A DNA stretch of 20,000 bases from IMG/VR virus record IMGVR_UViG_3300018050_001510. One strand, given 5' to 3'. Numbering within the stretch: the stretch's first letter is position 1; every line of letters begins with the position of its first letter. Under the pieces are notes generated by a model. It had not been told where the DNA came from and did not search any database. It saw only the letters and a list, made by a program, of their open reading frames with translations. This document shows positions 585 through 19,912 of this stretch, in pieces. The stretch is from an uncultured virus (IMG/VR IMGVR_UViG_3300018050_001510) (Duplodnaviria; Heunggongvirae; Uroviricota; Caudoviricetes). The position numbers and the translations under genes were made by a program.

Positions 585-587
585 AAA

Positions 588-1689: not shown

Positions 1690-1711
1690 AAATTAAAAAT
1701 TAGCAAGTAAG

Positions 1712-1719
1712 CAAATATA
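1712..1719 (-). promoter_or_regulatory. Bacteroidota-type -7 promoter box (TATATTTG)
   Basis: Exact match to TAnnTTTG, 22 nt upstream of the ATG at 1689 and directly after a terminator. Confidence 0.6.
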
Positions 1720-1747
1720 AAAATAAAGGTCGGGATTTCTCCCGACC
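1719..1747 (-). terminator. intrinsic terminator after the capsid gene block
   Basis: Minus strand GGTCGGGA-GAAA-TCCCGACC (8-bp perfect stem, GNRA loop) followed by TTTATTTTT. Confidence 0.85.
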
Positions 1748-1776
1748 AGTTACATATTTTAAATAAAAAGTTTTAA

Positions 1777-2466: not shown

Positions 2467-2496
2467 AAGAATTTTTTATTTTTTTGATTTTGAAAA

Positions 2497-4127: not shown

Positions 4128-4167
4128 AACTTTTCTTTTTCTTTTTTAGTTTATATTCAATTTACTT

Positions 4168-5547: not shown

Positions 5548-5605
5548 TTTAATTTGGTTTTTGATTAAACATTTTAATTTAATCGGCTACCTAAAATACA
5601 ATCTT

Positions 5606-6682
5606 TTAATCTTCTCCTACAAACCTTCTTGGATCAAAAGCACCTTTGCTTGTTGAAACATTTACTTTGTTTACTCCTGGCATTTCTGCATTTTTTAGAG
5701 TATTCAAAAGTTTGGCAGTAGCAGAGTTTTCTCCACGACTTTTTAATATTTGCTTTATCACATTTTTATTACGATAGATGAAAGCTATTTCAGCTAACTC
5801 TGATTCGTTTGCAGTAATCTCTCTCAGAAATTTACCACTTGTGATGTATTCATAATGTGAACCTTGAAATTTTTTAAGGTCAGAATCATTTTTAGCCACT
5901 TTAATATCAAACATCGTTTGAGTATTTTCTAAATGACTTTTTAGTTTCTCTTTAGAATACATTAAATCTTTATCGTTCATTGAACTCGATTCTTTGTACT
6001 CTTCCTTTTTTTTATTTTCTAGTTCACCAACGTATCCGTTGATTCCATTACGCAATTTTCTAGCTTCGATAACAAGAACACCACTGTTTTCCATTTTTTC
6101 AACAGCAATTTCAGCATCTTCTTCATTCATACCATTAAGGACTAAATCCTTAATCATCAAAGCATCATCTTTTAATTTAAGAACTTCATTTAATTTTAAA
6201 ATCTGTTCGTCAAATTTAGAAGGAGTAGTCTTCATACGAAGTTCCTCATTCTCTTGTTTTAACTTTTTAATAGCCTCAACAGTTTTTTCGATTGGTTCAT
6301 TTTCTTCAACTCCAAGTTCAGTATAAATTTCTTTTGAAATAACTGGCTTTTGGTTATTTGAATTTTTATTATCAGAATTATCGTTTTGCTCAACTTCTAA
6401 TCGAACAGTTTTTTGTTCATTAGTTTCATCATTATTATTGGATCTTTTATTTTCATCAAACCCTTTTTCATCTTCATCGGCTGAATCACTAAAATCACTC
6501 CATGTCAAAGAACCATCATTATCGGTATTTTCAGTTTCTCTATTATCGGTTTTAGAATTAATTTCTTCACCTTTATTATTAACTTCACTACCATTATTTG
6601 CATCGATATTATTTTCAATATCTACATCTTCTTCAGCAAACTTTTTTGCTAATTCAATGTTCATTTCATTTTCATTTGCCAT
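5606..6682 (-). CDS. acidic coiled-coil protein, putative capsid scaffolding protein
   Basis: 358 aa with a D/E/N-rich disordered N-terminus and helical remainder, between portal and MCP. Confidence 0.6.
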   Translation of the reverse strand: MANENEMNIELAKKFAEEDVDIENNIDANNGSEVNNKGEEINSKTDNRETENTDNDGSLTWSDFSDSADEDEKGFDENKRSNNNDETNEQKTVRLEVEQNDNSDNKNSNNQKPVISKEIYTELGVEENEPIEKTVEAIKKLKQENEELRMKTTPSKFDEQILKLNEVLKLKDDALMIKDLVLNGMNEEDAEIAVEKMENSGVLVIEARKLRNGINGYVGELENKKKEEYKESSSMNDKDLMYSKEKLKSHLENTQTMFDIKVAKNDSDLKKFQGSHYEYITSGKFLREITANESELAEIAFIYRNKNVIKQILKSRGENSATAKLLNTLKNAEMPGVNKVNVSTSKGAFDPRRFVGED

Positions 6683-6703
6683 AACTTTTCTTTTTCTTTA
6701 ATA

Positions 6704-6711
6704 CAAATATA
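6704..6711 (-). promoter_or_regulatory. Bacteroidota-type -7 promoter box (TATATTTG) for scaffold/MCP
   Basis: Exact TAnnTTTG in the 34-nt intergenic gap, 21 nt upstream of the ATG at 6682. Confidence 0.6.
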
Positions 6712-6716
6712 TATAA

Positions 6717-8963
6717 TTATTTCTTTGAAGTACTTTTTGTAGGGGCTTTTTTATCGGGTGCTGGTTTGTTTTTACTGTCCATCATCTTTTCACGCTCAGA
6801 CTGAATCTTTAAATTTGTTTCTTCAATCTTTGTACGATTTTTCATATCCGTAGTTTCTTTTGCTCCACGCATTAACTGGTCATTACTAATAGCCCTACCT
6901 TCACTCATAATATGAGCAACTTCAATTTTGGTTTTAGAATCCATATCTATATCGTACTTTTTCAACTCATTAGCCTGACCAGTAAGTTCATTTGATTGTT
7001 TAATCAATTCATTCTTTTGTTGTTCAATTTGAGTTTGTTGTGCTTGAACTTGTTTGAATCCATTTGTAATAATATTTTCAATTTCAGTAGCAGAACTGGC
7101 ACGAACAGAACGAATAGCACTTGAAGGATCAATAGCACCTGAATTAGCATATTGCATAATTAAAGCAGCCATAGTTTTTCTATCTGAAAGTTCCTTTGCA
7201 TTGTTTTTTACAAAAATACCGTACTCATCTTTAGCAATTGATTTATCAATATGAAATGTTTCCATGCCGGTATCTCCAAAAACATTAACCATACGACCTT
7301 CATTACCCCAACAAAAAGGCATAATATTAGCACAGGCTTGTAAAACATCACCAACAACCTTATAATGTATTTCATATAAAGGAGCAGTAATTAATGTAGA
7401 TTGCATTACATTTCTTTCATTTACACCAACCAAATCTCCAGACTTATTTATTCCTGATCGTGCAGCACTAATACCTGTCATTCTATCTGCTGTATCATTT
7501 AATAATGCAAGAAGGTTCATTAACTGTTGAACACTATTTGATAAAGTAAAATCTACAGATTGAAATTGGTTAAAACCATTTCCTCCATACTTATTACCTT
7601 CTTGTTTACTATTAATAAGGATAAGTCCTGAGTTCTTGGCATGATAAAAAACATCTTCTAAAGGAATCTTCTCAGGCTTTTGACTTACATCATAAACAAC
7701 CGACTTACCACCCGAAGCAGCTAAAGCCTTTTCAATATGATACCAAACAATGTTTGTCATCAATTGAACATTTTTTAATGCATCAACTGGCGATAATGTA
7801 ACACTTGTAAAATTATTTTTAATACATCCGTAATAATCTAAAGTTGTATGTTGATAGTTTTCTTCTGGACGAAATTGATTTGGTTTTCTACCCCAATTAA
7901 GTAATAATTCATGACCAATAAGAATACCTTGTCTAACATCTGAACAGCCATACTCACGAATATCTTCACCTTTTTTACCTTCATAATCATCTTCCATCAT
8001 TTTATAAAATGGAGTTTCTTCGTCATAAGGATTTTTAGAAACCTTATACTTCATCATTTTAATTGAACGCCATTGAAGTTCAGTAACGCAAACAGATAAT
8101 ACACCACCATCATCAAAACGATAAAAATCAAAACCGAATCCTAAATCGTCAAAATATGAACGGTCACGTGTTGATAAATCTTCAAGCCATTCAACCTGTT
8201 TCTTGTCTAATTTAAATCTATCAAGAATTTCATTAATTGCATAGTATCTTCTATGTCCAGCAAGTGAAGCATTTTGAATAAATTCTGATTCAGAATCTTT
8301 ATCCCAAATCATATTTCTAGGGTCAATCCTTTCAACATAAGGATCACCATTTTTTATATAAACTTTATAAAATTCTTTTGAGCAAATAGAAAGGTCATAA
8401 AAACCTCTTTTAAAAATATGGTCAAGACTATATTTTTGAACTAAAAATTTTAATCCTACATTAACATTTACCTCAACAGCATCTCTAAATTTCATATTGG
8501 AAAATTCTTCAATATCTTTTGGAATTTCTTCTCCAACATCTTCATCTTCCATTGGCACACCAAGTAGTTCTTCCATCTCTCTTCGTATAGGACGAAGCAA
8601 TGTTTCTACAGCGACACCAATCTTTTTTTCATTCTTTCTTGCAATAGCATTTCTATTAGTAACATTTACTGTCCACTCTAAACCTTGTGAAAGTAATTCT
8701 CCAGCAAGTAATTCTAATCGTGGAGCAATTACCGGCCAATTAACTAATCGTGCAGGAGCAGTAATTCCATAAGTGTCGGTCATATATTGAAATTGCTTAT
8801 GGTCAAAAATACCATCTACTAATTGGTAATTTTCATGGTCTTTAATATTTTCATTTCTAAAAACACCATAATCATGATGATAATTTATGGTTGCAAGAAT
8901 ACAATCACGATGAAATTGTTCATCTTTTTTATTCTCTGGTATTGACTGTCTAGGAAAAATCAT
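6717..8963 (-). CDS. portal protein
   Basis: 748 aa with an ATGA overlap with the large terminase. FP.Q.IP...K, I.PRLELLAGE, E.YKVY..NGDP.V..IDPRN and TGIS.AR.G motifs, plus a C-terminal Gln-rich coiled coil. Confidence 0.88.
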   Translation of the reverse strand: MIFPRQSIPENKKDEQFHRDCILATINYHHDYGVFRNENIKDHENYQLVDGIFDHKQFQYMTDTYGITAPARLVNWPVIAPRLELLAGELLSQGLEWTVNVTNRNAIARKNEKKIGVAVETLLRPIRREMEELLGVPMEDEDVGEEIPKDIEEFSNMKFRDAVEVNVNVGLKFLVQKYSLDHIFKRGFYDLSICSKEFYKVYIKNGDPYVERIDPRNMIWDKDSESEFIQNASLAGHRRYYAINEILDRFKLDKKQVEWLEDLSTRDRSYFDDLGFGFDFYRFDDGGVLSVCVTELQWRSIKMMKYKVSKNPYDEETPFYKMMEDDYEGKKGEDIREYGCSDVRQGILIGHELLLNWGRKPNQFRPEENYQHTTLDYYGCIKNNFTSVTLSPVDALKNVQLMTNIVWYHIEKALAASGGKSVVYDVSQKPEKIPLEDVFYHAKNSGLILINSKQEGNKYGGNGFNQFQSVDFTLSNSVQQLMNLLALLNDTADRMTGISAARSGINKSGDLVGVNERNVMQSTLITAPLYEIHYKVVGDVLQACANIMPFCWGNEGRMVNVFGDTGMETFHIDKSIAKDEYGIFVKNNAKELSDRKTMAALIMQYANSGAIDPSSAIRSVRASSATEIENIITNGFKQVQAQQTQIEQQKNELIKQSNELTGQANELKKYDIDMDSKTKIEVAHIMSEGRAISNDQLMRGAKETTDMKNRTKIEETNLKIQSEREKMMDSKNKPAPDKKAPTKSTSKK

Positions 8964-10768
8964 AAGTTATAATTTAATGTTGGTGGCTTAGAGCCAGATT
9001 TATTCATTCCCACATAAGTAATTTTACCTGAATCTTTATCCCTATGGAAACCAAATAATGATTCTTCTTTTTCTTCTTTTACAGGCTTAGCAATAAGCTT
9101 AATCATGTCCATATCGTGCATCAAACATAATCCAAAAGCCATTGCTTCATCCGTATTCTTTGTCCCAAATTTAGCTAATTCATGCAAAAGTGACACAAAA
9201 AAAATATTATCGCAATAATCTCGCACATATTCTGCAATTAAATCTACTAAAAGACTTTTTTGGTATTCCGACATATTAACTCCATATCGATTTGTTGGCT
9301 TTGCATAGGGAGCATCTGAAGATAATGGTCGTTCTTTTAAGTATCTTAACGCTTCTTTTTTATTAAACCATCCTAAAAAATAATCATCTGTATTTTCTAC
9401 AAGTATTTGAGTATCAAAGTAAACAGCTAGTTTATAACAATTTTCACAAAATGTATCTTTTGAAGCAGGTCGGTCCAAATACTTTGCTACAGGAATATTT
9501 CCAACTGTATTTACACCTAAGAACCTACGGTACACATACATACAACCTTTTGAACGGTATTTATTATCATTTGAACCTTTTTCTTCAAACTCATCATTTA
9601 TATTGTAACTATCAACACCCGCTACGTGAGCAAATTGATAACCATCCAACGGAAGTGGTGGATCTAAAAGTTCAAAACATCCATTATCATCAAAAATAAA
9701 TTCAGGTTTAGCACCAACAACACTTTTACCTTCTTTTGTTCTGGGCCATTCTAATCGACCACGAACAACCTTTCGGGAAGAAGTATCGGTAAGTATATAA
9801 GCTTTTTGATTATTAATTTTATCAAGATCAAATGGAGTATTACCAAGTGACACAAAAGCATCTTCCATGCTAAGTGGCATCTCTTGTTTAAAAGTATAGT
9901 ACGCAAGTTTATCACCTTTTTTTTCAGCCAAACGTTTTTCAATATCTTTTGTTGCACCAGCAACATCTGACTTTCCTGTACTCATATCAAAGAATCCGAC
10001 ATAAGCTTTTGAAGCTGGAATAAATATTGGTTTTAAATTATACTTTTTGGCATCATAAAGCATATCTTGAAAATCCCTATGTTCATGGGAAATCTGATTT
10101 GAAGTACCACCAATAATTGGAATACCAAACTGTTTAGAACCTTCACGAAAACATTCTTCAGAGTTGAGGTAAATTTTTTTAAGTTTTGAAACCTCACCAC
10201 CCTCTTCAATAAACATCCATTTTAATGAAAGTCCACGAAAACAGTTTTCATCTTTTGCTATACGAAAGTGCATTTCTGATTGTAATCCTTTTGGAACCCA
10301 TTCACCTTCAATTTTTTCTTTATAACCAGATATTAAAGAACCATCTTCTGCTTTTGAATAAGATTTTAATTTAAAGTATGGATCTATTTTATTGTAAGCT
10401 TTCATGACCTTGGCACGAAAGTCCATTACATAATCTTCTTTTTCGGAAGCTACTGCAGAAACACTATTTGGAAAAAATGACCATTCATGAAGTAATAGTC
10501 CAGCATTATTAAAAGAAAAACCCTTACGTCTTGCTTTTAAAACAATAAGACCGTAAGCTCCTTTTTCAGCTTCTTCAATTTCACAATAATATTCGTGATC
10601 TTGGTCACGATAAAAAGGATGACCTACTTTTTTACGATTTGTTTTTGGGTCAAAAGTATCAATGCTGCAAAAATTTAAATAAAAATAGTAAGCTCCCGAC
10701 ATTCTAGTACCTCCATTTGGAGTATATCCATTTATACATCGGTCATACTGTTCACTCCACCAATTCAT
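8960..10768 (-). CDS. terL: terminase large subunit (true start probably further upstream, near 10843)
   Basis: Walker A LKARRKGFS, Walker B FIEEGGE, coupling motif GGTS, RNase H-like nuclease AGVDSY...DEAMAFG. Confidence 0.93.
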   Translation of the reverse strand: MNWWSEQYDRCINGYTPNGGTRMSGAYYFYLNFCSIDTFDPKTNRKKVGHPFYRDQDHEYYCEIEEAEKGAYGLIVLKARRKGFSFNNAGLLLHEWSFFPNSVSAVASEKEDYVMDFRAKVMKAYNKIDPYFKLKSYSKAEDGSLISGYKEKIEGEWVPKGLQSEMHFRIAKDENCFRGLSLKWMFIEEGGEVSKLKKIYLNSEECFREGSKQFGIPIIGGTSNQISHEHRDFQDMLYDAKKYNLKPIFIPASKAYVGFFDMSTGKSDVAGATKDIEKRLAEKKGDKLAYYTFKQEMPLSMEDAFVSLGNTPFDLDKINNQKAYILTDTSSRKVVRGRLEWPRTKEGKSVVGAKPEFIFDDNGCFELLDPPLPLDGYQFAHVAGVDSYNINDEFEEKGSNDNKYRSKGCMYVYRRFLGVNTVGNIPVAKYLDRPASKDTFCENCYKLAVYFDTQILVENTDDYFLGWFNKKEALRYLKERPLSSDAPYAKPTNRYGVNMSEYQKSLLVDLIAEYVRDYCDNIFFVSLLHELAKFGTKNTDEAMAFGLCLMHDMDMIKLIAKPVKEEKEESLFGFHRDKDSGKITYVGMNKSGSKPPTLNYNL

Positions 10769-10842
10769 ATAATCAGCAGAACCCTTACGTAAAGAATAAC
10801 GAAGAGGATCATGAACAGCCGGGCTATATTTTTCTGCTAGTA

Positions 10843-11397
10843 TCAGACTTTCATTGTTTTTTCTTTCTTTCTAAGTTTTTCCTCTTGATATGATAATGCT
10901 TCCTCTTCTTTACCATGTATCTGTACACCTTTTTCTAAACTGGCAATAATTCGTTTTTCTAATTTCTCTCTTGATTCAGCAGCTTTTTCCATTTTAATTG
11001 CCATATCGTTTACTTCGTCTAAATTTTTTGCATCAACTTTAATCCCTCGAAATATTTTTGTAATCTCATTCATCTTATCAGTCATTGCCCAATACTGGTC
11101 AAGCAATGGATCGTATTGTAACTTACGATATTCTTCACGTGCAAGATTAACTTTTGGATTACGCATATATCCTGTTTCACCATCTAATAAGTTTTCACAG
11201 GCTTGCTTTTCACGTTCCTCTGTTGGTAATTTACGATATATAGATTTATAATCTTCAACGGCTACTATCCAACGAACCATTCGTGAACCCATGTTCTTGT
11301 CTTTATAGACAGCAAAAAGTTTAGGGGCAAGAGAAATTGTCTTGTCCAGTAGGAATACATTTCCATCATTCTCAATATCTACTAAAGTCCCAAACAT
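10843..11397 (-). CDS. putative terminase small subunit
   Basis: 184 aa helical protein directly upstream of terL, with DYKS.Y...EER and A.E.Y.KLQYDP motifs. The function is inferred from position and size. Confidence 0.45.
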   Translation of the reverse strand: MFGTLVDIENDGNVFLLDKTISLAPKLFAVYKDKNMGSRMVRWIVAVEDYKSIYRKLPTEEREKQACENLLDGETGYMRNPKVNLAREEYRKLQYDPLLDQYWAMTDKMNEITKIFRGIKVDAKNLDEVNDMAIKMEKAAESREKLEKRIIASLEKGVQIHGKEEEALSYQEEKLRKKEKTMKV

Positions 11398-11588
11398 GGT
11401 TCTTGTTCATCAGTTATTAAACCAGTTTTATTTTTTGGTGTTGCATGAAAATCAAAAAAAAGAAATCTCATTCTTGTTCCTAAATAAAAATAATAATGAG
11501 GCTTACGTCTTATAATACGAGAAAATCTTCTATGTTTTTCAATAGAAGATTCACTTTTTGACTTTCTAATAATACGATACGAAATCAT
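11382..11588 (-). CDS. hypothetical basic protein
   Basis: 68 aa. Its ATG overlaps the upstream stop (TAATG) and its end overlaps the next gene. Confidence 0.45.
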   Translation of the reverse strand: MISYRIIRKSKSESSIEKHRRFSRIIRRKPHYYFYLGTRMRFLFFDFHATPKNKTGLITDEQEPCLGL

Positions 11589-11701
11589 TAATAAGGAGAT
11601 TTCATTTTCTTTGGTCCTTTAACTGGTGTAAGTTTCTTAACTCCCTTTGGAGCTTTTACAGTTTTTAATCCCTTCGGAGCTTTTACTTTTTTTTGTGACA
11701 T
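11588..11701 (-). CDS. 37-aa Lys/Pro-rich basic micro-protein
   Basis: Not in the ORF track. MSQKKVKAPKGLKTVKAPKGVKKLTPVKGPKKMKSPY, with an A-rich start context and TAATG coupling to the next gene. Confidence 0.7.
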   Translation of the reverse strand: MSQKKVKAPKGLKTVKAPKGVKKLTPVKGPKKMKSPY

Positions 11702-11716
11702 AATATTAATTTTAAA

Positions 11717-11968
11717 TTAAACGTGATTATTCATAAGAGGAATTTTTAATTCTCTCAATAAATTTATGACTAACACTTCTGCATCTAATTTATGGCGAAA
11801 TTCATTCTCCATAATTTTTTTGCATATAGCGGTAATCTCTTCAGGAATGGAATAACCTACAACGGCTTTCCAATGACCTGTATTTTGACAATGATAATAT
11901 AAACGATCATTGCATCTAGCGCCTTTATTCTCGCTAAAAATTTCTACGGTGTAATTGTTTTGTGACAT
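11717..11968 (-). CDS. hypothetical protein, first gene of the leftward operon
   Basis: 83 aa, with a TATATTTG box 20 nt upstream. Confidence 0.7.
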   Translation of the reverse strand: MSQNNYTVEIFSENKGARCNDRLYYHCQNTGHWKAVVGYSIPEEITAICKKIMENEFRHKLDAEVLVINLLRELKIPLMNNHV

Positions 11969-12412: not shown

Positions 12413-12418
12413 ATAATT

Positions 12419-12523
12419 ATGAAAATAAATCTAATAATCTTTATCGCTATTTCCTCAACAGCAGTATTTGCCCTAACAGGTTATTTCTGCATCTATCCAT
12501 TAATTCTTAAAAACCAAAACTAA
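12419..12523 (+). CDS. 34-aa single-pass membrane micro-protein
   Basis: Not in the ORF track. MKINLIIFIAISSTAVFALTGYFCIYPLILKNQN, starting 6 nt after the previous stop with an AATAATTATG context. Confidence 0.55.
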   Translation: MKINLIIFIAISSTAVFALTGYFCIYPLILKNQN

Positions 12524-12534
12524 TTTTCTATAAA

Positions 12535-12568
12535 ACAAAAAATCCAGAAGATATTTCTACCCCCTGGA
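12535..12568 (-). terminator. intrinsic terminator between convergent genes
   Basis: Minus strand TCCAGGGGGTA-GAAA-TATCTTCTGGA (11 bp, 3 G-U pairs) followed by TTTTTT. The G-U pairs fix the minus strand. Confidence 0.75.
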
Positions 12569-12634
12569 CTTCTTGCAAAACATAAAACATTGTTCGATTT
12601 TAAAACAAAGAAAAAACTATTCCAAAGATAATAA

Positions 12635-13165
12635 TTAATCCTTACCTACAACACCCCTCTTCCAACCAATAGCATTATCTTCCGTATCTACATCATCAAT
12701 CCTTACCATAATCCTCGTATTACTTACCCAACTTAAAAACCATCCATAATACTTCGTATCTCCCTCATACCGGTAAATCCTCTCTCCACCTTCCATATCC
12801 TTTAATTCACTATTCAATAACGCATGCGCCGTCTCCTCATCCATATTCTCGTACATCAAATATCCCTGATCTATAAACTCCCTACCCCTATCACTAATCT
12901 GAAACTTTACCTTATAATATCCCCCCTCAACATTCATCTCCCTTTCTACCACCCCCACCATAACATCAGATTCACCTAATCGTACAACTAATCCATAACT
13001 CATACTACCAAACGTAAAAACCTTCCTTACATTCATCTTCTCAATATCATCCCTCATTACACCCCTCCTCAATAATCCACTAAATACCTTATCAAGCAAC
13101 CTGGACTCAACATCCAAATACTCCTTAACCATTTGCTCAAACATCTCTATCCTCTCCATATTCAA
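12635..13165 (-). CDS. hypothetical protein encoded by a C-depleted strand
   Basis: 176 aa (TTG start, or ATG at 13159) followed by a terminator. It contains no Pro or Cys. Confidence 0.6.
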   Translation of the reverse strand: MNMERIEMFEQMVKEYLDVESRLLDKVFSGLLRRGVMRDDIEKMNVRKVFTFGSMSYGLVVRLGESDVMVGVVEREMNVEGGYYKVKFQISDRGREFIDQGYLMYENMDEETAHALLNSELKDMEGGERIYRYEGDTKYYGWFLSWVSNTRIMVRIDDVDTEDNAIGWKRGVVGKD

Positions 13166-13594
13166 AAATTACATAACTAACCCCCATTGCGTAAACTTTA
13201 CAGTACAAACACCCCCCCTATAGTACTGAAAATTATATTTGTGATACCCCGGTACGGAGGTTATCACTAAAAAACCCCGATAATAAAATCAAAATGGAAA
13301 CAGGGAGGCATCAATTCATCAAAAATTTTTTCATTTTGGAAAAAATATCGTCTAATAATGATAAATTCTAATCATTTTTGACGATTATGTAGAACTAATT
13401 AACTATAATATAATCAATCTATTACTTGTGAGGTAATCCCTTATCTACGTTAATCAATATTATAATTATGTGTGCTTTACTATCTATTGAGAATATTATA
13501 TACGATGTAAAGATGTGTGATATTGTCCTAAGACTTTGTAAAGTTAGCGGAAATAAATGAGATAGTCAAGAATCTAAACGTATTTAGGTGAACT

Positions 13595-13675
13595 TAGTCG
13601 TTTGTTGTCGGATAAATATATTATTATCATTGATTCTCAATGATAATAATTAATAGCCGTTTGTTGTCGGCTAAA
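13595..13675. repeat. two 22-nt direct repeats flanking a 14-bp perfect palindrome
   Basis: TAGTCGTTTGTTGTCGGATAAA (13595-13616) and TAGCCGTTTGTTGTCGGCTAAA (13654-13675). Between them ATTATTATCATTGA-TTC-TCAATGATAATAAT (13620-13650). Confidence 0.85.
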
Positions 13676-13692
13676 CAAATACAATAATGTTT

Positions 13693-13750
13693 AGGGGCTT
13701 TATTGTCTTTTGTATCAATTAAACTAATTTAAACTAAATACTATTACAAC
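13693..13750 (+). repeat. intergenic hairpin + translation-start module, copy 1
   Basis: AGGGGC-TTTATT-GTCTTT TG...AAACTAAATACTATTACAAC ATG. Confidence 0.7.
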
Positions 13751-13969: not shown

Positions 13970-13973
13970 ACAT

Positions 13974-14018
13974 AAGGGCTTAACAGCCCTTTGTATTAAT
14001 TAATTAAATCTAAATACT
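13974..14018 (+). repeat. intergenic hairpin + translation-start module, copy 2
   Basis: AAGGGCT-TAAC-AGCCCTT TGTATTAATTAATTAAATCTAAATACT ATG. Confidence 0.85.
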
Positions 14019-14285
14019 ATGTACTACATTTTAAAAGATAAACAACCTGTAAAGGTTAGTTATGATGAGTATCTAAAGCAAAACATCAGTGATGATATAA
14101 TTGCTAAAGATAACTTTGGAACAACGATAATATCAACAGTATTTGTTGGTGTTTATAATTGTATGTTCGAAACAATGGTGTTCGGAGATCCAGACTTAGA
14201 AGGATATCAAAAAAGATATTCAACTTATGAAGAGTCTGTAAAAGGACATCAAATGATTAAAGAATGTATCGAAAAGTTGTCGTAA
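14019..14285 (+). CDS. conserved phage hypothetical protein
   Basis: 88 aa with the ISTVF.G...FETMVF...YQ.RYST.EE...GH pattern I recognise from small phage proteins of unknown function. Confidence 0.8.
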   Translation: MYYILKDKQPVKVSYDEYLKQNISDDIIAKDNFGTTIISTVFVGVYNCMFETMVFGDPDLEGYQKRYSTYEESVKGHQMIKECIEKLS

Positions 14286-14293
14286 CTATTACT

Positions 14294-14339
14294 CAAAGGG
14301 CTTTAATGTCCTTTGATTATTAACCTAAAACTAAATGTT
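14294..14339 (+). repeat. intergenic hairpin + translation-start module, copy 3
   Basis: CAAAGGGC-TTTAAT-GTCCTTTG ATTATTAACCTAAAACTAAATGTT ATG. Confidence 0.85.
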
Positions 14340-14639
14340 ATGAAAAATCAATTCGCTGTTATCGTTCCTGAGCAATTCGGGAACTTGAATGTTACAATCT
14401 TTGGAACAAACAACAATGTTGCAGAAGTAACCGAAAAACATCTTGTTACAAGCATTGATAATGCAAAAGCTGTCATTAGATACAAAGCATTATCATTTGC
14501 AGACAAGATGAAGTTGAACAGACCGAGTATAACTATTGGAATCAATGAGCAATCATTGGAAGGCAATGGTAAATTACAAGGTCATATCAGCTTTGGTGAT
14601 GAGTGCAAGTATGACGGTACTTGGGAGTTACAGATGTAA
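14340..14639 (+). CDS. hypothetical protein (99 aa)
   Basis: The track start at 14313 (TTG) lies inside the repeat hairpin. The in-frame ATG at 14340 follows the conserved AAACTAAA motif. Confidence 0.75.
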   Translation: MKNQFAVIVPEQFGNLNVTIFGTNNNVAEVTEKHLVTSIDNAKAVIRYKALSFADKMKLNRPSITIGINEQSLEGNGKLQGHISFGDECKYDGTWELQM

Positions 14640-14641
14640 TG

Positions 14642-14693
14642 ATAAACAAAGGGCTTTACAGCCCTTTGTTTATTAATTAAAAACTAAATAGTT
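14642..14693 (+). repeat. intergenic hairpin + translation-start module, copy 4
   Basis: ATAAACAAAGGGCT-TTAC-AGCCCTTTGTTTAT (14-bp perfect stem) TAATTAAAAACTAAATAGTT ATG. Confidence 0.85.
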
Positions 14694-15041
14694 ATGCATA
14701 AAAATTTAAAGATTAATCTACATCGTGGATTGATAGAAGATAAAGAAAAACTTTACTTCAAAATTCAAAACATGAAATCCTTCATAATACTTGAAGGAAA
14801 CAACGACAATATGCTAACAGAATACATGGAAAGAAAACATACATTCTTATGTCCTAAAAAGAAATACAAAGACAGATTGTATGATTTATATCCAATGTAT
14901 ATCTGGGATTTTCTAAGAGAAATCACATTTGATTCAAGCATGAGTGGATTCTTTGAATTCAAATCAAAGAAAATAAAATTCCATATCGTGCAAACATCAA
15001 ACTGGGATGAATCAAAGAATTGGTATATTGCTATTTACTAA
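14694..15041 (+). CDS. hypothetical protein
   Basis: 115 aa flanked by repeat modules. Confidence 0.75.
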   Translation: MHKNLKINLHRGLIEDKEKLYFKIQNMKSFIILEGNNDNMLTEYMERKHTFLCPKKKYKDRLYDLYPMYIWDFLREITFDSSMSGFFEFKSKKIKFHIVQTSNWDESKNWYIAIY

Positions 15042-15047
15042 TCAAGT

Positions 15048-15069
15048 AAGGGTGCTTTTGTGCCCTTTG
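15048..15069 (+). repeat. hairpin variant, copy 5 (possible terminator)
   Basis: AAGGGTGC-TTTT-GTGCCCTT TG followed by a T-rich tract. Confidence 0.65.
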
Positions 15070-15151
15070 CTTTGTTTTTAGGTTTACAAAGATAGCATTG
15101 GGAGAGTAGCATACATGATTCATTATGCTCACAACTGGACAACAGAGTTTT

Positions 15152-15208
15152 AGGGCTTTGTTGTCCTTTGTTTTGTTACAATGTCGTAACAATTAAAAAC
15201 TAAAACAA
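15152..15208 (+). repeat. intergenic hairpin + translation-start module, copy 6
   Basis: AGGGC-TTTGTT-GTCCT TTG...AATTAAAAACTAAAACAA ATG, with an inserted TTGTTAC/GTAACAA stem. Confidence 0.75.
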
Positions 15209-15808
15209 ATGAGTAATTTAAAAGCATTATTGGCGAAACGTCAATCAGGTGAGGCTAAATCAACCGTTCAATTGAATCAATCAGGTAACGTAAAAATCGT
15301 TTCCGTTGAATCAGAAGTTTCACAAAAAGGAAATGGAATGATTGTAATGGTTGTTGAAGAAGAACTTGGTTTGAAACTTCAAAAGAAAGAATTCATGAGA
15401 ACTTCTCAGGTGAAATACTTAGAAGGTTACAGAAAAAAGATGAACTTGTTATTGGAATTCAACAAAATTCCAGCACCAACTGTTCAAACTCCATTCGCTT
15501 TTGTTCTTGACGCTAATAAAGAACCGATTACCATCAACGCTGAATTAAAAGGCGAAGAGTTATCGGCTGAATTAAAGCGTACCAAAGAAGAACTTGGTTC
15601 GGATGAATTCATTACGGTTACAGACGATGCGGGTACTAAATTCCGAGTATTGGTAGTTGTTGACGAGTCAGCAATTCCAGCTTACAACGAGGCTTATGCA
15701 AATGCATTGAAACAATGTATTGATAAAAGTTTCTATTTGGAATTGAAAGAAAAAGATTCACAAGGTTATTGGAAGACATTCTATTTACCACGTAAATCAG
15801 CAAAATAA
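15209..15808 (+). CDS. putative OB-fold ssDNA-binding protein (DUF669-like)
   Basis: 199 aa. VKIVSVESEVSQKGNGMIVMVV resembles the DUF669-type N-terminal strands, and CIDKSFYLELKEK resembles the C-terminal strand. Codon usage suggests high expression. It lacks the usual acidic tail. Confidence 0.45.
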   Translation: MSNLKALLAKRQSGEAKSTVQLNQSGNVKIVSVESEVSQKGNGMIVMVVEEELGLKLQKKEFMRTSQVKYLEGYRKKMNLLLEFNKIPAPTVQTPFAFVLDANKEPITINAELKGEELSAELKRTKEELGSDEFITVTDDAGTKFRVLVVVDESAIPAYNEAYANALKQCIDKSFYLELKEKDSQGYWKTFYLPRKSAK

Positions 15809-15815
15809 GGTTAAA

Positions 15816-15840
15816 AGAGGGCAGAAATGCCCTCTCCTTT
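15816..15840 (+). terminator. GNRA-capped hairpin, probable terminator
   Basis: AGAGGGCA-GAAA-TGCCCTCT CCTTT, 7 nt after the stop. Confidence 0.65.
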
Positions 15841-15894
15841 ATATTGTACTTTGTATTACTTCGTAATACATTTTTTTTATAAATCCTTGCTTCT

Positions 15895-15959
15895 CGCTTA
15901 CCCATAATGCTTACCCATATTGCTTACCGATAACGCTTAACCATTATGCTTAAAAACAC
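15895..15959. repeat. tandem 13-bp repeats (YGCTTAcCsATwW)
   Basis: CGCTTACCCATAA / TGCTTACCCATAT / TGCTTACCGATAA / CGCTTAACCATTA / TGCTTAAAAACAC at 15895, 15908, 15921, 15934, 15947. Confidence 0.85.
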
Positions 15960-16083
15960 AAAAGCTCTCTTGAAATGCTTTGCAAAACGCTTATCAGCCC
16001 ACGTTTTTCAGTCGGGTTCTATCAGGGGGAGTGGCGCCAGACAATGTATTTATATAATATGTAACCAACAAAAAATCAAATAT

Positions 16084-16668
16084 ATGAAAAGAATGAATTG
16101 TATTATTGTAATACTCATTGGAGTATTCATTGGAATGAGTAAAAACTCAAAAGCTACTATGATAATGACCGATCCTGGTCCTACATCTCATTATAGTCAA
16201 TATTCAGATAGAGGTCTTCGAGGAAAAGTCATTAATAATGAACTATTAAAAAAAATTAAGACTGATGAACAAATTGTATTTACTGCAGGATCTGAAAAAA
16301 GAGTTAATCATGAAGGATGGACAAGATACTTGATAGTAAGCATTATGTTGATTGTATTGATTAAATTCTGGATTGCTGAAATTGCAAGAAGAAAAGCTAA
16401 TAAGATAACAAAGTATCTTGTATTACATGCTATGCATTTCAATATTGATTATCAATTAGCTAGTTTAATTTATCAAAGAAATTACTTAGATGAAACTGGA
16501 CCTAAACACTTATTCTTTTTGTTTAGCTATAAACAACTGATTTCCAAGGATGATTTAAAAAGCTATAAAAAAATACAACATGATATAAATCAGAGTAGTA
16601 TAAAAAAAAGCTTTGATAAAACAAATTGGCAAGAGATCAGAAACAGTTTGCACATTCAAGGAATTTAG
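16084..16668 (+). CDS. putative membrane protein (signal peptide plus one TM helix)
   Basis: The in-frame ATG at 16084 has an A-rich context. MKRMNCIIVILIGVFIGMSKNSKA is signal-like and YLIVSIMLIVLIKFWIAEIARRK is TM-like. The track start at 15946 lies in the repeat array. Confidence 0.65.
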   Translation: MKRMNCIIVILIGVFIGMSKNSKATMIMTDPGPTSHYSQYSDRGLRGKVINNELLKKIKTDEQIVFTAGSEKRVNHEGWTRYLIVSIMLIVLIKFWIAEIARRKANKITKYLVLHAMHFNIDYQLASLIYQRNYLDETGPKHLFFLFSYKQLISKDDLKSYKKIQHDINQSSIKKSFDKTNWQEIRNSLHIQGI

Positions 16669-16738
16669 ATCTATTAGATTTATTATGTCTGTTTACCCAA
16701 AAAGAATTAACTCAAAAACCAACCAAAACTATAAGGAA

Positions 16739-17149
16739 ATGAATACAAATTTAAAGGAACAGTTATTTGCTCGTCAAAGCGGTAATTTTATGGCTAAAAC
16801 CCTACAGCCATCAACACTTCAAGGATTGAAAGAGGTATTAGAATCACGTCCAAAGAAAGAATTAGATGAACGCACGAAAATGAAAATTCAAGTATTCAAA
16901 AACCTAGAAAAAATCATTGAAATGAAGAAAATGACAGTCAAAAGAAGTGCAGATAAAAGAAGAATTGAATCAGTTATTGTTTCTGTTGCTGGCTTTCCAG
17001 TTCCATTCAAACCGATTGTAAATTACGATGGAAAACTAGAAATGATTAGTCTTTCAGAGAATGGATTCTTTAAAGGAGTTAGATTCTGGGGCAATGAATT
17101 ATTTGGACACCATGTAAATTTTGTAACTAAAAACTTTGAAGTATGTTAA
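16739..17149 (+). CDS. hypothetical protein (136 aa)
   Basis: In-frame ATG at 16739 after an A-rich leader. It overlaps the next gene. Confidence 0.7.
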   Translation: MNTNLKEQLFARQSGNFMAKTLQPSTLQGLKEVLESRPKKELDERTKMKIQVFKNLEKIIEMKKMTVKRSADKRRIESVIVSVAGFPVPFKPIVNYDGKLEMISLSENGFFKGVRFWGNELFGHHVNFVTKNFEVC

Positions 17150-17352
17150 GTCCAGAATTAGAATTTGAACGGGTAACAAATGGATTGTTGCCCGATTTCG
17201 ACCTTCAAGAATTTAAGGATTGTGATGAAAAACTATATCAAGCGATAATTGAAACGGTTCGATTATTTGGTGAACTAAAATACCATGAAGGTATTCAGGA
17301 TGCCACCACTGCTGCTATTAATGTAATCAGAAATCACGGTTTAGATGATTAA
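17143..17352 (+). CDS. hypothetical protein
   Basis: 69 aa, overlapping both neighbours. Confidence 0.7.
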   Translation: MLSPELEFERVTNGLLPDFDLQEFKDCDEKLYQAIIETVRLFGELKYHEGIQDATTAAINVIRNHGLDD

Positions 17353-17527
17353 GCTCAAATTTGTATGGATGTTACTCACTCATATAGTAACGCCACAGGA
17401 AAAGCATGAAGGAAGGCAAATGTATAACATCTGTTTTAAGGATGGAACTACAATTGAATACGCTTACAAGGAAGAAGTTTTAGAATACATTAAAACTGGT
17501 ACTTTCGAGTACAATGAAGACTTTTAA
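17345..17527 (+). CDS. hypothetical protein
   Basis: 60 aa, overlapping the upstream gene. Confidence 0.65.
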   Translation: MIKLKFVWMLLTHIVTPQEKHEGRQMYNICFKDGTTIEYAYKEEVLEYIKTGTFEYNEDF

Positions 17528-17532
17528 ATATT

Positions 17533-17663
17533 AAACACGTTGGTTGAAGCCAACATCTAATAAAACCGAATGTGTGACCTTACGTAAATCTACCCAGAAA
17601 GCTTGAAATAGCGAACTTCGAAAGAAGGTAGTAAGGATAAAGCCGGATATCAACGTGTTTTTT
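17533..17663 (+). ncRNA. candidate structured non-coding RNA, family not recognised
   Basis: ORF-free and relatively GC-rich. Closing stem AAACACGTTGG/TCAACGTGTTT, nested CCTTA/TAAGG and CTAC/GTAG, hairpins GCT-TGAAAT-AGC and CTTC-GAAA-GAAG. Confidence 0.55.
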
Positions 17664-17731
17664 AAAATATTTACGGTATGTCAGGCTAAACTACCATCCT
17701 GTAACCAGCGTAGTTTTATCGTAAATAAATC

Positions 17732-17771
17732 AAGGATCGGGGCAACCCGGTCCTTTACTAATTAAAAACAT
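17732..17771 (+). repeat. GNRA hairpin + translation-start module (divergent copy)
   Basis: AAGGATCGGG-GCAA-CCCGGTCCTT TACTAATTAAAAACAT ATG. Confidence 0.65.
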
Positions 17772-17948
17772 ATGAATCAATTAATGAAATTTGCGCAAGA
17801 AGCAATTACAAACAATCCTGAATACAAATCAAGGATAAATGAATTATTCCAATTATGCTTAGATGAAATTGATGAAGGTGGTTCAGAAGAACATGAGATT
17901 CAATTATGCTATTCTTCAATTTATGAATTAATAAAAAAACATTCATAA
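17772..17948 (+). CDS. 58-aa acidic hypothetical protein
   Basis: Not in the track. MNQLMKFAQEAITNNPEYKSRINELFQLCLDEIDEGGSEEHEIQLCYSSIYELIKKHS, following the AATTAAAAAC module. Confidence 0.75.
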   Translation: MNQLMKFAQEAITNNPEYKSRINELFQLCLDEIDEGGSEEHEIQLCYSSIYELIKKHS

Positions 17949-18327: not shown

Positions 18328-19536
18328 ATGAATAAAGAAATAAAAAAGTTTAATGATTACCTCAGCAAAAGAATTGTTGATCTACGATCAACAACATGTG
18401 AAGTTCTTTTAATAGAAGTGCGAAATAAATTTAATGAAACATTTACTATTCAAGAATTAAAACCAAAAAAAAATAAATTTGAAAATGATTTTGATAAAAA
18501 CTTTAAAGAACTTTGTTCTTTTGGAAATAATAAAAGTTGCTTACCAGCATTAGATAATGCATTACTTACAGAAGATGGATTATTAACAGTAACAGACCTT
18601 GAAATTTATTATCAATTACAAATTAATATAAAAGATAAAAAAGCAATAATTCCAATAAGTATTTTAAAAACTGTGGGAAAGTTGGAAGCAATTCTTGATG
18701 TTGAATTTGATAATATAACTTGTAAAGGAAAACTTATTACTAATAGAAGAGAAATGATATTTACATCATGTGCAATTGATGAATTTCCTCAGTTACCTGA
18801 ATTTGTTTCCGAGAAGTGGCATTTTGCTATCATGCCAGAAGACCTTATTAATGCAAAAAAACTAATGACGTTTGCTGGAAATAATGATTTACGTCCTGTA
18901 ATGAATGGTGTTTATTTTGGTGAAAAAATTGTTTCTACAGATGCTCATAAGTTAGCTTGGTTTGAAACAAAAAGCAATATCAAAGATGAGCGTTTCATTA
19001 TTGACAGAAAACATATTCCATTTTTATGTTATGGTGATGTAAAAACATGGTATGAAAATAAGCTAAGCATAATGAATAAGCAATGCAAATCTAATTGGAT
19101 AACTATTGAAAATCCATGGAAAAAAATATTCATTAGAACTACTGAAGGTATATATCCAAATTTTGAAGCTGTTATTCCAAAGATGGAAAATTGTCCTATT
19201 ATTGTAAATATAAATAAGAACGATTTAATTCAAGGTATCAATGATGTACTTCCTTTTGCAAACAAAACAACAAACAAAATTTCATTTAAAATGAAAGATG
19301 AATTAGGTGTTGTTTCTTTACATGCTGAGGACTTAGATATTGGTAAAGAATTAAAAATATTTATTGAAACAAATAAAAAAGTTGGAGATATTGAAATTGC
19401 ATTTAATGGTAAAATGATGTTATCGATATTAAAAACTATTGATGAATCAACTATTACTTTTAGTATGAGTACTCCTAGTCGTGCTATTCGTGTAAATGAA
19501 AATGCTTTGATTATGCCATTAATGTTAGAGAATTAA
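18328..19536 (+). CDS. dnaN: DNA polymerase III beta sliding clamp-like protein
   Basis: 402 aa. LPALDNALL, TDLEI, DEFP.LP, D.RPVMNGVYF, STDAHKLA, EG.YPNFEAVIP, IAFNGK.MLSILK and LIMPL are all beta clamp hallmark motifs. Confidence 0.9.
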   Translation: MNKEIKKFNDYLSKRIVDLRSTTCEVLLIEVRNKFNETFTIQELKPKKNKFENDFDKNFKELCSFGNNKSCLPALDNALLTEDGLLTVTDLEIYYQLQINIKDKKAIIPISILKTVGKLEAILDVEFDNITCKGKLITNRREMIFTSCAIDEFPQLPEFVSEKWHFAIMPEDLINAKKLMTFAGNNDLRPVMNGVYFGEKIVSTDAHKLAWFETKSNIKDERFIIDRKHIPFLCYGDVKTWYENKLSIMNKQCKSNWITIENPWKKIFIRTTEGIYPNFEAVIPKMENCPIIVNINKNDLIQGINDVLPFANKTTNKISFKMKDELGVVSLHAEDLDIGKELKIFIETNKKVGDIEIAFNGKMMLSILKTIDESTITFSMSTPSRAIRVNENALIMPLMLEN

Positions 19537-19541
19537 TGTTT

Positions 19542-19576
19542 GGGGCTTTCGGGCCCTTTACATTTAATTTATAATT
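19542..19576 (+). repeat. hairpin + translation-start module (divergent copy)
   Basis: GGGGCT-TTCG-GGCCCT TTACATTTAATTTATAATT ATG. Confidence 0.65.
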
Positions 19577-19912
19577 ATGGAATTTAAACCAACAGATAAA
19601 TTTTTACCAATTAGCGTTTATCGTTTTCCTCTTGGTTCATGCGGAGGTATTACTGATTTACTTAAAACAATCTACATTCCTTCTCCAAAAGGAAATTATA
19701 CATTTGAAGAAGTGGAAGACCATTTAATTTTTTATGAAGAAAGACGTGGTGAAGAATACTGGGCTTTAAAGCCATACATTCAACCTAAAGGACTTATTGG
19801 ACCAATGGCCGGAGGTAACTTAGCATACAGTTCTGATTCACGTTGCAAAAGAGTTTATCATATACATGATAGATTTGAAACCGAAGAACAATATAATTCA
19901 AATTCAAATTAA
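19577..19912 (+). CDS. conserved phage hypothetical protein
   Basis: 111 aa with L.ISVYR...GGIT...GPMAGGNLAYSSDSR...IHDRFE motif. Confidence 0.8.
   Translation: MEFKPTDKFLPISVYRFPLGSCGGITDLLKTIYIPSPKGNYTFEEVEDHLIFYEERRGEEYWALKPYIQPKGLIGPMAGGNLAYSSDSRCKRVYHIHDRFETEEQYNSNSN

What the first reader, a model, noticed from the sequence alone, without database searches (positions are those of the whole stretch)
17533..17663. Candidate novel multi-stem ncRNA with a mutually exclusive alternative fold
Seen: an 11-bp closing helix (17533-43 with 17650-60) followed by a T tract, nested CCTTA/TAAGG and CTAC/GTAG helices, and a three-way junction carrying a TGAAA (T-loop-like) hairpin and a GAAA tetraloop hairpin. 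The 5' arm can instead form the local hairpin GTTGGT-TGAA-GCCAAC (17539-54), which excludes the closing helix. Inference: a small RNA or a switch-like leader controlling the downstream genes that include the beta clamp. I cannot assign it to a known riboswitch or ribozyme class.
Basis: partly seen in the sequence, partly recalled or inferred. Interest (0 to 1): 0.7.

Follow-up and report, generated by a model that had tools for sequence, protein, structure and literature searches.

The report
Dispensable structured RNA cassette in phage
The described fold is really there, but it is a small non-coding insert that close relatives of this crAss-like phage carry in shortened form or lack altogether, so it is an optional RNA module of unknown role and not a switch controlling the downstream replication genes.

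Summary
The closing helix is 12 bp (17533-17544 with 17649-17660) and runs into a T6 tract. The + strand folds better than shuffles (z -2.45). No Rfam family matches.

The window is a crAss-like phage. The element lies in a 244-nt spacer between two small ORFs, two ORFs upstream of the beta clamp.

Comparison with relatives decides the reading:
- G001 keeps the closing helix and T tract but lacks the inner three-way junction.
- G002 lacks 17530-17665 entirely but keeps the same gene order.
- All six outer differences between the window and G001 preserve a + strand fold. Two of them are compensated pairs in a small hairpin, 17553-56/17570-73.
- No second copy was found anywhere I searched.

Best reading: a dispensable, exchangeable cis-acting RNA module in the 3' UTR of the upstream ORF, probably a transcript-end or attenuating structure. 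A ligand switch is unlikely.

Side finding: in more distant relatives the same slot holds a twister-like element that Rfam does not detect. It occurs at 106 places in IMG/VR.

The parts
17345..17527 (+). Upstream 60-aa ORF (ORF60). Its TAA stop ends 5 nt before the element.
   Evidence: No Pfam or PHROG hit. Conserved in G001 (98% aa) and G002 (95% aa). Ten metagenome loci were found with it, seven of them at 56-100% identity over most of its length, one on a cut-off gene, and two weak 15-residue matches.
17522..17531 (+). Left copy of an A/T-rich direct repeat flanking the cassette (TTTTAAATAT).
   Evidence: G002 has a single, slightly different junction at this point.
17533..17544 (+). 5' arm of the 12-bp closing helix.
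   Evidence: In G001, G17543 is A, turning G.U into A-U.
17539..17554 (+). It overlaps the 5' arm.
   Evidence: Equilibrium probability is 0.01. In G001 it has one A-C mismatch and one U.G pair.
17553..17573 (+). Hairpin H2: 4-bp stem 17553-56/17570-73 with a 13-nt A-rich loop (17557-17569) that is identical in G001.
   Evidence: The stem changes from ACAU/AUGU to GCAC/GUGC in G001, which is two compensated pairs. Simulation: 144 of 50,000. Probability in the window's own ensemble is low, 0.02-0.03.
17577..17636 (+). Inner three-way-junction module (two nested helices plus the TGAAAT-loop and GAAA-loop hairpins). It is variable: about 11 unrelated nt replace it in G001.
   Evidence: gaps at 17578-83 and 17591-17633. 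A 27-nt pattern from it has 0 matches in IMG/VR.
17649..17660 (+). 3' arm of the closing helix.
   Evidence: C17654 is T in G001, turning G-C into G.U.
17658..17663 (+). T6 tract that overlaps and follows the 3' arm.
   Evidence: Kept in G001.
17660..17670 (+). Right copy of the flanking direct repeat (TTTTAAAATAT).
17668..17727 (+). Neighbouring conserved stem-loop D2 (11-bp outer helix, 7-bp inner helix, possible CAGG/CCTG pseudoknot). Not part of the variable cassette.
   Evidence: D2 plus the next hairpin fold at -31.8 kcal/mol, z -5.0, 0 of 200 shuffles as good. Identical in G001. The only change in G002 is G17676A, turning G.U into A-U.
17732..17755 (+). GC-rich hairpin H3 (10 bp, GCAA loop) followed by the A-rich leader of the next ORF. 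This is the usual gene punctuation of this module.
   Evidence: Similar hairpin-plus-leader units lie upstream of the ORFs at 14019, 14340, 14694 and 15209.
17772..17948 (+). Downstream 58-aa ORF. The beta clamp (18328-19536) lies two ORFs further on.

Best explanation
The element at 17533-17663 is a discrete, non-coding, single-copy cassette of about 131-136 nt in a crAss-like phage. It sits directly after the stop codon of a 60-aa ORF. Its two ends pair in a 12-bp helix that runs into a U6 tract. It is optional: near-identical genomes carry a short form or none.

I infer that it works as RNA on the + strand, in cis, as an accessory 3'-UTR structure. The long-range helix plus U tract would stop or attenuate transcription, or block 3' exonucleases, ahead of the regular punctuation (D2 and H3). 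The inner three-way junction would be a peripheral, replaceable extension.

Shown: the anatomy, dispensability, single copy number, absence from known families, and a substitution pattern compatible with the fold. Inferred: the RNA-level function and the terminator or stabiliser role.
For: - The helices are present, and the + strand fold beats shuffles (z -2.45, 2 of 200). The - strand is weaker (z -1.79, 10 of 200).
- The cassette ends coincide with the helix arms. G002 lacks 17530-17665, the only gap over 3 nt in about 3 kb of collinear sequence.
- The only large difference from G001 in 3.7 kb is the inner module.
- All 6 differences between the window and G001 in the outer 71 nt fit one + strand fold. 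Two are G.U/Watson-Crick exchanges in the closing helix. Four form two compensated pairs in hairpin H2. Two or more compensated pairs in one retained helix arose in 144 of 50,000 random sets of six transitions.
- Position and polarity fit a transcript end: 5 nt after a stop codon, an A-rich 5' flank, a U6 tail, and the same strand as the genes.
- There is no conserved reading frame, because the 49-nt difference in G001 breaks every frame.
Against: - Only two sequences carry the element, so covariation rests on a single pairwise comparison.
- A looser version of the compensation test is not significant (2,635 of 20,000).
- H2 has only 0.02-0.03 probability in the window's own ensemble.
- The G001 form does not fold better than shuffles (z -1.42, 18 of 200).
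- An interior of 104 nt between the arms is far from a canonical intrinsic terminator, and the terminator scan did not call it.
- The helix has only 4 G-C pairs. This module's own terminator-like hairpins are short and GC-rich, and H3 already supplies one.
- There are no expression data.
Confidence: 0.4

Rival explanations
1. Selfish or neutral DNA: either a MITE-like insertion bounded by terminal inverted repeats, or the decaying remnant of a lost gene cassette (punctuation hairpin, A-rich leader, start codon, 3' end). No RNA function in either case.
For: - Clean presence/absence with inverted repeats at the ends and imperfect A/T-rich direct repeats on both flanks.
- This genome region is a mosaic of gene cassettes. 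For example, G001 has a 235-nt insert coding for a small ORF just before the clamp.
- The 5' half (hairpin 17539-54, then an A-rich stretch, then ATG at 17570) resembles the hairpin-leader-ATG units upstream of real genes.
- The element and its borders diverge faster than the flanks: 9 and 5 mismatches per 100 nt against 1-4 nearby.
Against: - No second copy was found: not in the window, not in 94 kb of G001-G003, not in 123 fetched loci totalling 159 kb.
- Three IMG/VR patterns from the element are not informative: two gave 0 matches, and one GTDB pattern gave 4 matches, none with a 3' arm within 250 nt.
- The empty site in G002 is not a clean single copy of the flanking repeat.
- Neutral decay does not predict two compensated pairs in H2, or that both mismatches in the arms are G.U on the + strand.
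Confidence: 0.25
2. A stand-alone small RNA gene. Its 5' and 3' ends pair, it ends in a U tail, and the conserved 13-nt loop of H2 is the functional (pairing or protein-binding) surface.
For: - The stem changes while the H2 loop at 17557-17569 stays identical in G001.
- Paired ends plus a U tract are typical of stable small RNAs.
- It is accessory and exchangeable, like many phage-encoded small RNAs.
Against: - No promoter-like site precedes it, and it starts 5 nt after a stop codon.
- The complement of the H2 loop has no better-than-chance target in the window: 11 matches with up to 3 mismatches against 11.1 expected.
- There are no expression data.
Confidence: 0.15
3. A self-cleaving or otherwise self-processing RNA of an undescribed class, alone or together with the neighbouring stem-loop D2. 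It would cut the polycistronic transcript at this gene boundary.
For: - In more distant relatives, the slot directly after the ORF60 homologue holds a twister-like double-pseudoknot element.
- One of those contigs has a near-threshold pistol ribozyme about 1 kb upstream (33.9 bits against a gathering score of 34.5).
- Small ribozymes typically occur as sporadic intergenic cassettes with a closing helix and optional peripheral stems (background knowledge).
Against: - No similarity to any Rfam ribozyme.
- The twister L4 motif is absent from the window and from G001-G003.
- The three-way junction is missing in G001, so any catalytic core would have to lie in the short outer part.
- This is association only; no cleavage site can be named.
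Confidence: 0.07
4. One reading: a riboswitch-like leader in which the local hairpin and the closing helix alternate to control the downstream genes.
For: The two folds are mutually exclusive in sequence. The closing helix is followed by a U tract.
Against: - The element is absent from G002 although the gene order is the same.
- The junction is absent from G001.
- The alternative hairpin is weakened in G001.
- D2, H3 and two ORFs separate it from the clamp.
- No Rfam riboswitch matches.
- The element is confined to two near-identical lineages.
Confidence: 0.03

Closest known systems
Intrinsic (Rho-independent) terminators with an A tract / U tract, including branched-loop forms
   Same: A stem whose 3' arm runs into a U6 tract, an A-rich 5' flank, the same strand as the genes, and a position just after a stop codon.
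   Different: The arms are 104 nt apart (57 nt in G001) where a terminator has a loop of 3-10 nt. The stem has only 4 G-C pairs. The scan for terminator-like sites does not call it. This module's own terminator-like hairpins are short and GC-rich.
Bacterial miniature inverted-repeat elements (MITEs; ERIC- or Correia-type intergenic repeats). Comparison from recall.
   Same: About 130 nt, terminal inverted repeats, located in transcribed intergenic DNA, presence/absence between close genomes, and short and long forms that differ by an internal block.
   Different: Single copy in every sequence I could search. No clean target-site duplication. No family found in 185,579 prokaryote species with the 5' end pattern.
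Mobile promoter/stem-loop cassettes of T4-type phages (PeSL). Comparison from recall.
   Same: This module is punctuated by repeated hairpin-plus-leader units at gene borders. Gene cassettes come and go at these borders. The element lies at such a border.
   Different: The element is not one of the repeated units. It is unique in sequence and carries a long-range helix.
Twister self-cleaving ribozymes
   Same: Relatives carry a twister-like element in the same slot. Like the element studied here, it has a conserved closing region and a highly variable interior stem.
   Different: The window's element has no twister L4 motif, no double pseudoknot that I can draw, and no Rfam match.
Transcription-attenuating riboswitches
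   Same: The sequence allows two mutually exclusive folds, one of them ending in a U tract.
   Different: No conserved aptamer, dispensable, not conserved upstream of any gene family, and the alternative hairpin is not maintained.

Membership tests
Any Rfam 15 family (riboswitches, ribozymes, sRNAs) | Covariance-model score at or above the family's gathering score | tested here: not met
   0 matches in the whole window at gathering scores. At E up to 10 in 17400-17900 there are only MIR828 (15 bits against 69) and Flavivirus-5UTR (13.9 against 80).
Intrinsic terminator | Stem immediately followed by a U-rich tract on the transcribed strand | tested here: met
   12-bp helix with its 3' arm at 17649-17660 and T6 at 17658-17663. 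Kept in G001.
Intrinsic terminator | Compact GC-rich hairpin with a short loop | tested here: not met
   104 nt between the arms and 4 G-C pairs of 12. Not among the 12 terminator-like sites.
Intrinsic terminator | Transcripts end at the U tract | not testable with these tools
MITE / inverted-repeat mobile element | Terminal inverted repeats at the ends of the inserted block | tested here: met
   The arms lie 3-5 nt inside the 17530-17665 gap against G002.
MITE / inverted-repeat mobile element | Target-site duplication, with an empty site holding one copy | tested here: inconclusive
   The flanking repeats at 17522-31 and 17660-70 differ by one A. The junction in G002 is not a clean single copy.
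MITE / inverted-repeat mobile element | Multiple copies in a genome or in related genomes | tested here: not met
   Searches found no further copy. The window's own full genome is not held.
Riboswitch / attenuator | Both alternative folds maintained in relatives | tested here: not met
   The closing helix is kept. The local hairpin gains an A-C mismatch in G001. Only one relative is informative.
Riboswitch / attenuator | Conserved association with the regulated genes | tested here: not met
   G002 keeps the genes without the element.
Twister ribozyme (tested for the window's element) | P4/L4 consensus with the TCCCAAG loop, as given in bioRxiv 10.1101/2024.07.11.603121 (passages) | tested here: not met
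   The pattern TCCCAAGS has 0 matches in the window. A longer pattern holding it, TCCCAAGS followed at 4-6 nt by CAG, has 0 matches in G001-G003.
Twister ribozyme (tested for the element in relatives L008-L011, L014 and the IMG/VR loci) | L4 motif, a 2-bp pseudoknot to 'NC', a second pseudoknot to 'GRG', an 'NA' cleavage site, and P2 and P4 stems (descriptors) | tested here: met
   96 of 96 cells pair in the fold I drew. In 59 distinct cores, P4 has 4 variants, all paired 5 of 5. The pre-P2 triplet is TAA in 55 of 59. The tail is GAGGG in 57 of 59.
Twister ribozyme (tested for the element in relatives) | Match to the Rfam twister covariance models | tested here: not met
   No twister hit at E up to 1, 5 or 10, even for the shortest form. 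Membership therefore stays open until a cleavage assay is done.

The most novel reading that the evidence does not exclude
The variable cassette, alone or together with the conserved stem-loop D2 (17668-17727), is an undescribed self-processing RNA or processed small RNA. In more distant relatives the same position after the ORF60 homologue is occupied by a twister-like element, and a near-threshold pistol ribozyme lies nearby. The window's lineage would then have a non-homologous replacement doing the same job: cutting or ending the transcript at this gene boundary.
Probability: 0.07. Interest if true: 0.8.

Novelty: new variant of a known kind. Interest (0 to 1): 0.3.

Why it matters
On its own this is a minor result. 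It is an optional structured spacer in an uncultured freshwater-type crAss-like phage, and it shows that a convincing multi-stem fold with a plausible alternative hairpin can still be dispensable.

It has two wider uses:
- It marks a gene boundary where related phages swap non-homologous structured RNA modules: this cassette, D2, an unrelated 106-nt insert in L010/L011, and a twister-like element. That makes it a natural place to look for new processing RNAs.
- The twister-like family found on the way occurs at 106 places in IMG/VR and is invisible to the Rfam models. If it cleaves, it would extend the known twister class to forms with a large, hypervariable P5 stem.

Tried and rejected
- Known RNA families: Rfam at gathering scores and at E up to 10 gave only chance hits. 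tRNA/tmRNA scan found none.
- Coding: the 40-aa (- strand) and 36-aa (+ strand) ORFs across the spacer are broken by the 49-nt difference in G001. Rejected.
- More homologues for covariation:
  - blastn against 50,697 phage records found no match.
  - Two IMG/VR patterns from the element gave 0 matches.
  - Patterns from H3 and D2 found only G002.
  - The single metagenome scan, run with ORF60, gave 10 loci. Only L007 carries the element, and it is identical to the window over the stretch printed (30 nt before to 330 nt after the ORF60 stop).
  - Note that the tools say records very close to the window may be left out.
- Host-derived mobile element: the GTDB scan with the 5' end gave 4 matches, about what chance predicts (my estimate), and none has a 3' arm.
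- Target of the H2 loop in the window: at chance level.
- Compensation statistics: my first, loose test (any two compensated pairs anywhere) was not significant, 2,635 of 20,000. Only the stricter test (both pairs in one retained helix) gave 144 of 50,000. Both treat the T17556 deletion as a T-to-C change plus loss of C17557.
- Hammerhead, HDV-like, pistol, Y-RNA and put-like readings were tried by eye and from memory against the junction sequences. None fitted. These are not formal tests.
- I built no covariance model of the element. Two sequences would not support one.

Full report
**Context.** The window is part of a crAss-like phage.
- The - strand from 3 to 11968 holds tail ring proteins, the Crassvirus major capsid protein, portal and large terminase.
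- From 12125 onward the + strand holds many small ORFs without family hits, plus a DNA polymerase beta clamp at 18328-19536.
- The finding lies in a 244-nt spacer (17528-17771) between a 60-aa ORF (17345-17527) and a 58-aa ORF (17772-17948).
- The window contains no tRNA or tmRNA.

**The observation.**
- The closing helix is 11 bp as stated (17533-43 with 17650-60, one pair being G.U). T17544-A17649 extends it to 12 bp. It runs into T6 at 17658-17663.
- The free MFE fold of 17528-17671 (-28.9 kcal/mol) keeps the closing helix, the nested inner helices and both small hairpins. Shuffles average -21.5 (z -2.45), and 2 of 200 do as well.
- The first ten closing pairs have probability 0.90-0.99. 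The full alternative hairpin has probability 0.01 at equilibrium, and forcing it costs 3.0 kcal/mol.
- The - strand folds slightly less well relative to its shuffles (z -1.79, 10 of 200).
- An inverted repeat of this length is not remarkable by itself. The window has 23 inverted pairs within 160 nt, one of them an 11-nt perfect pair inside a gene.

**Known families.** Rfam gives nothing at gathering scores for the whole window. It gives only two chance-level hits at E up to 10 around the spacer.

**Relatives decide the interpretation.** Three lineages can be compared.
- G001 is the nearest record held. It is 96-99% identical to the window over the four collinear stretches that cover most of it, and about 75% over one 0.4-kb stretch.
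- G001 keeps the outer 71 nt of the element, including the closing helix and T tract. About 11 unrelated nt replace 17577-17636, the whole three-way junction (net gaps of 6 and 43 nt).
- G002 is 97.5% identical over 15034-17533. It lacks 17530-17665 altogether, and this is the only gap over 3 nt in about 3 kb.
- G002 still has ORF60, an ORF58-like gene, ORF94 and a clamp in the same order.
- The element is therefore a discrete, dispensable cassette. Its inverted-repeat arms lie 3-5 nt inside the ends of the presence/absence block, and that is what makes the repeat meaningful.
- Imperfect A/T-rich direct repeats flank it (17522-31 and 17660-70). The G002 junction is not a clean single copy of that repeat.

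**Is the fold under selection?** The window and G001 differ at six places in the outer part.
- G17543A and C17654T each switch a closing-helix pair between G.U and Watson-Crick. RNAalifold keeps all 12 pairs.
- The other four changes are A17553G, loss or change of T17556, A17570G and T17573C. Together they convert a 4-bp stem (17553-56/17570-73) from ACAU/AUGU to GCAC/GUGC. That is two compensated pairs around a 13-nt A-rich loop that does not change.
- I simulated six random transitions on these 71 nt. Two or more compensated pairs in one retained helix, among 31 candidate helices, arose in 144 of 50,000 trials.
- A looser test, counting any two compensated pairs anywhere, arose in 2,635 of 20,000 trials and is not significant.
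- This small hairpin has only 0.02-0.03 probability in the window's own ensemble.
- The G001 version as a whole does not beat its shuffles (z -1.42, 18 of 200).
- The evidence for selection on a + strand RNA fold is therefore suggestive. It rests on a single pairwise comparison.
In G001 it gains an A-C mismatch and a U.G pair.

**Copy number and spread.** I found no second copy anywhere.

| Search | Result |
|---|---|
| Arm 10-mer in the window, up to 1 mismatch | 3 matches; two are the arms themselves (1.4 expected) |
| Element against G001-G003 (94 kb) | only the G001 locus itself |
| blastn-short against 123 fetched loci (159 kb) | only the four chance loci that share the typed pattern |
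| Two exact patterns from the element in IMG/VR | 0 matches |
| 5' end pattern in one genome each of 185,579 prokaryote species | 4 matches, none with a 3' arm within 250 nt |
| blastn of 17400-17900 against the phage collection | no match |
| Metagenome scan with ORF60 | 10 loci; only L007 carries the element, and it is identical to the window over the printed stretch |

The tools warn that records very close to the window may be hidden, and the window's own full genome is not held.

**Surroundings.** The rest of the spacer is conserved, unlike the element.
- It holds a 60-nt stem-loop (D2, 17668-17727) and a GC-rich hairpin with a GCAA loop (H3, 17732-17755). Together they fold at z -5.0, with 0 of 200 shuffles as good.
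- Both are identical in G001. In G002 there is a single change, G17676A, turning G.U into A-U.
- H3 plus the following A-rich leader is the ordinary punctuation of this module. Similar hairpin-leader-ATG units precede the ORFs at 14019, 14340, 14694 and 15209.
- The region is a mosaic. Gene cassettes differ between the three genomes, and G001 has a 235-nt insert coding for a small ORF before the clamp.

**What it most likely is.** I read the element as an accessory cis-acting RNA structure in the 3' UTR of ORF60.
- I infer that the long-range helix with its U tract ends or attenuates transcripts, or protects their 3' ends. The inner junction would be a replaceable peripheral extension.
- For this reading: position, polarity, A-rich 5' flank, U tail, and the fold-preserving substitutions.
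- Against it: the 104-nt interior, the weak stem, the regular terminator-like hairpin H3 only 70 nt downstream, and the complete lack of expression data.
- I put this at 0.4.
- Neutral or selfish DNA (a MITE-like insertion, or the relic of a lost gene cassette whose 5' half still looks like hairpin, leader, ATG) gets 0.25.

**A lead from more distant relatives.**
- In L008, L009/L014 and L010/L011 (ORF60 homologues at 73-79% identity), the slot right after the stop codon holds a different conserved element.
- That element fits a twister-like double pseudoknot: 96 of 96 cells pair in the fold I drew, and two P4 pairs change on both sides. With four sequences the shuffle control is weak, since 42 of 500 shuffles reach the observed values.
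- A 23-nt pattern from its 5' core matches 106 stretches of IMG/VR.
- Among the 80 stretches fetched, 75 also have the 3' half and 59 cores are distinct. P4 occurs in four variants, all fully paired. The base of an extra stem (P5) covaries. The P5 interior is hypervariable, giving elements of about 87 to over 200 nt.
- A twister screening preprint (bioRxiv 10.1101/2024.07.11.603121; passages read) uses these descriptors: the P4/L4 consensus with a TCCCAAG loop, 'NC' and 'GRG' pseudoknot partners, and an 'NA' cleavage site. The element meets them.
- A review states that P5 occurs in 1% of twisters (PMC6154101, section 2.1 read).
- Rfam's models find no twister there at E up to 10, even for the shortest form. 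Membership therefore stays open.
- L010 also has a pistol ribozyme hit just under threshold, 33.9 bits against 34.5.
- L010/L011 also carry an unrelated 106-nt structured insert between the stop codon and the twister-like element, again flanked by A/T-rich direct repeats.
- Only 5 of the 80 fetched loci have an ORF60 homologue nearby, so the twister-like element is not tied to that gene.
- The window and G001-G003 lack the twister motif.
- This shows that the gene boundary is a place where non-homologous structured RNA modules are exchanged. It is the only support for the ribozyme-like reading of the window's own modules.

**Literature.**
- A full-text search for 'crAss-like' plus 'ribozyme' returned 12 papers. 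Judging from the 9 listed titles and abstracts, none is about small self-cleaving ribozymes in these phages.
- The Crassvirales review PMC10136315 mentions ribozymes only as introns, in the single passage found.
- The comparisons with PeSL cassettes of T4-type phages and with ERIC/Correia elements are from my own recall, not from any call.

**Verdict.** The switch interpretation is not supported. The element is a real but dispensable, lineage-restricted structured cassette of uncertain, probably modest, function.

Noticed in passing
L009:735-850, L008:1685-1815, L010:1785-1890 (also L025-L104): A twister-like double-pseudoknot element with a hypervariable extra stem, found at 106 places in IMG/VR (80 fetched, 59 distinct cores). 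It meets the published sequence descriptors for twister, but the Rfam models do not detect it. In L031 two copies lie in tandem.
   Followed up: partly
L010:464-523: A pistol ribozyme hit just below Rfam's gathering score (33.9 against 34.5 bits, E 0.0047), about 1 kb upstream of the ORF60 homologue.
   Followed up: no
L010/L011, about 1684-1790 (also L033, L064): An unrelated 106-nt structured insert sits between the stop codon of the ORF60 homologue and the twister-like element, flanked by A/T-rich direct repeats. This is the same slot and the same pattern as the window's cassette. L086 has a 346-nt spacer that begins with a 13-bp long-range helix right at the stop codon. L068 and L086 share a further conserved stretch just upstream of the twister-like element.
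   Followed up: no
window 17668-17727: Conserved 60-nt stem-loop D2 with a possible CAGG/CCTG pseudoknot. It is identical in G001 and has one pair-preserving change in G002. Together with hairpin H3 it folds at z -5.0. It has no Rfam match and is found only in this small lineage.
   Followed up: partly
window 13970-15210 and 17732-17771: A repeated gene punctuation: a GC-rich hairpin ending in CCTTTG or CCTT, then an A-rich leader containing AATTAAAAAC a few nt before the ATG. It may act as a terminator plus translation-start signal and as a recombination linker.
   Followed up: partly
window 12413-13750: A long stretch between the divergent modules. It holds a 176-aa - strand ORF (12635-13165) with no family hit and strongly C-rich + strand composition. 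About 580 nt of non-coding DNA follows, with a 27-nt direct repeat (13595 and 13654) and a perfect 14-bp palindrome (13620-13650). This may be a regulatory or origin region.
   Followed up: no
G001 19352-19587 (between window 18322 and 18323): G001 has a 235-nt insert encoding a small ORF (about 72 aa) between ORF94 and the clamp. G002 likewise has extra DNA between the ORF58-like gene and ORF94.
   Followed up: partly
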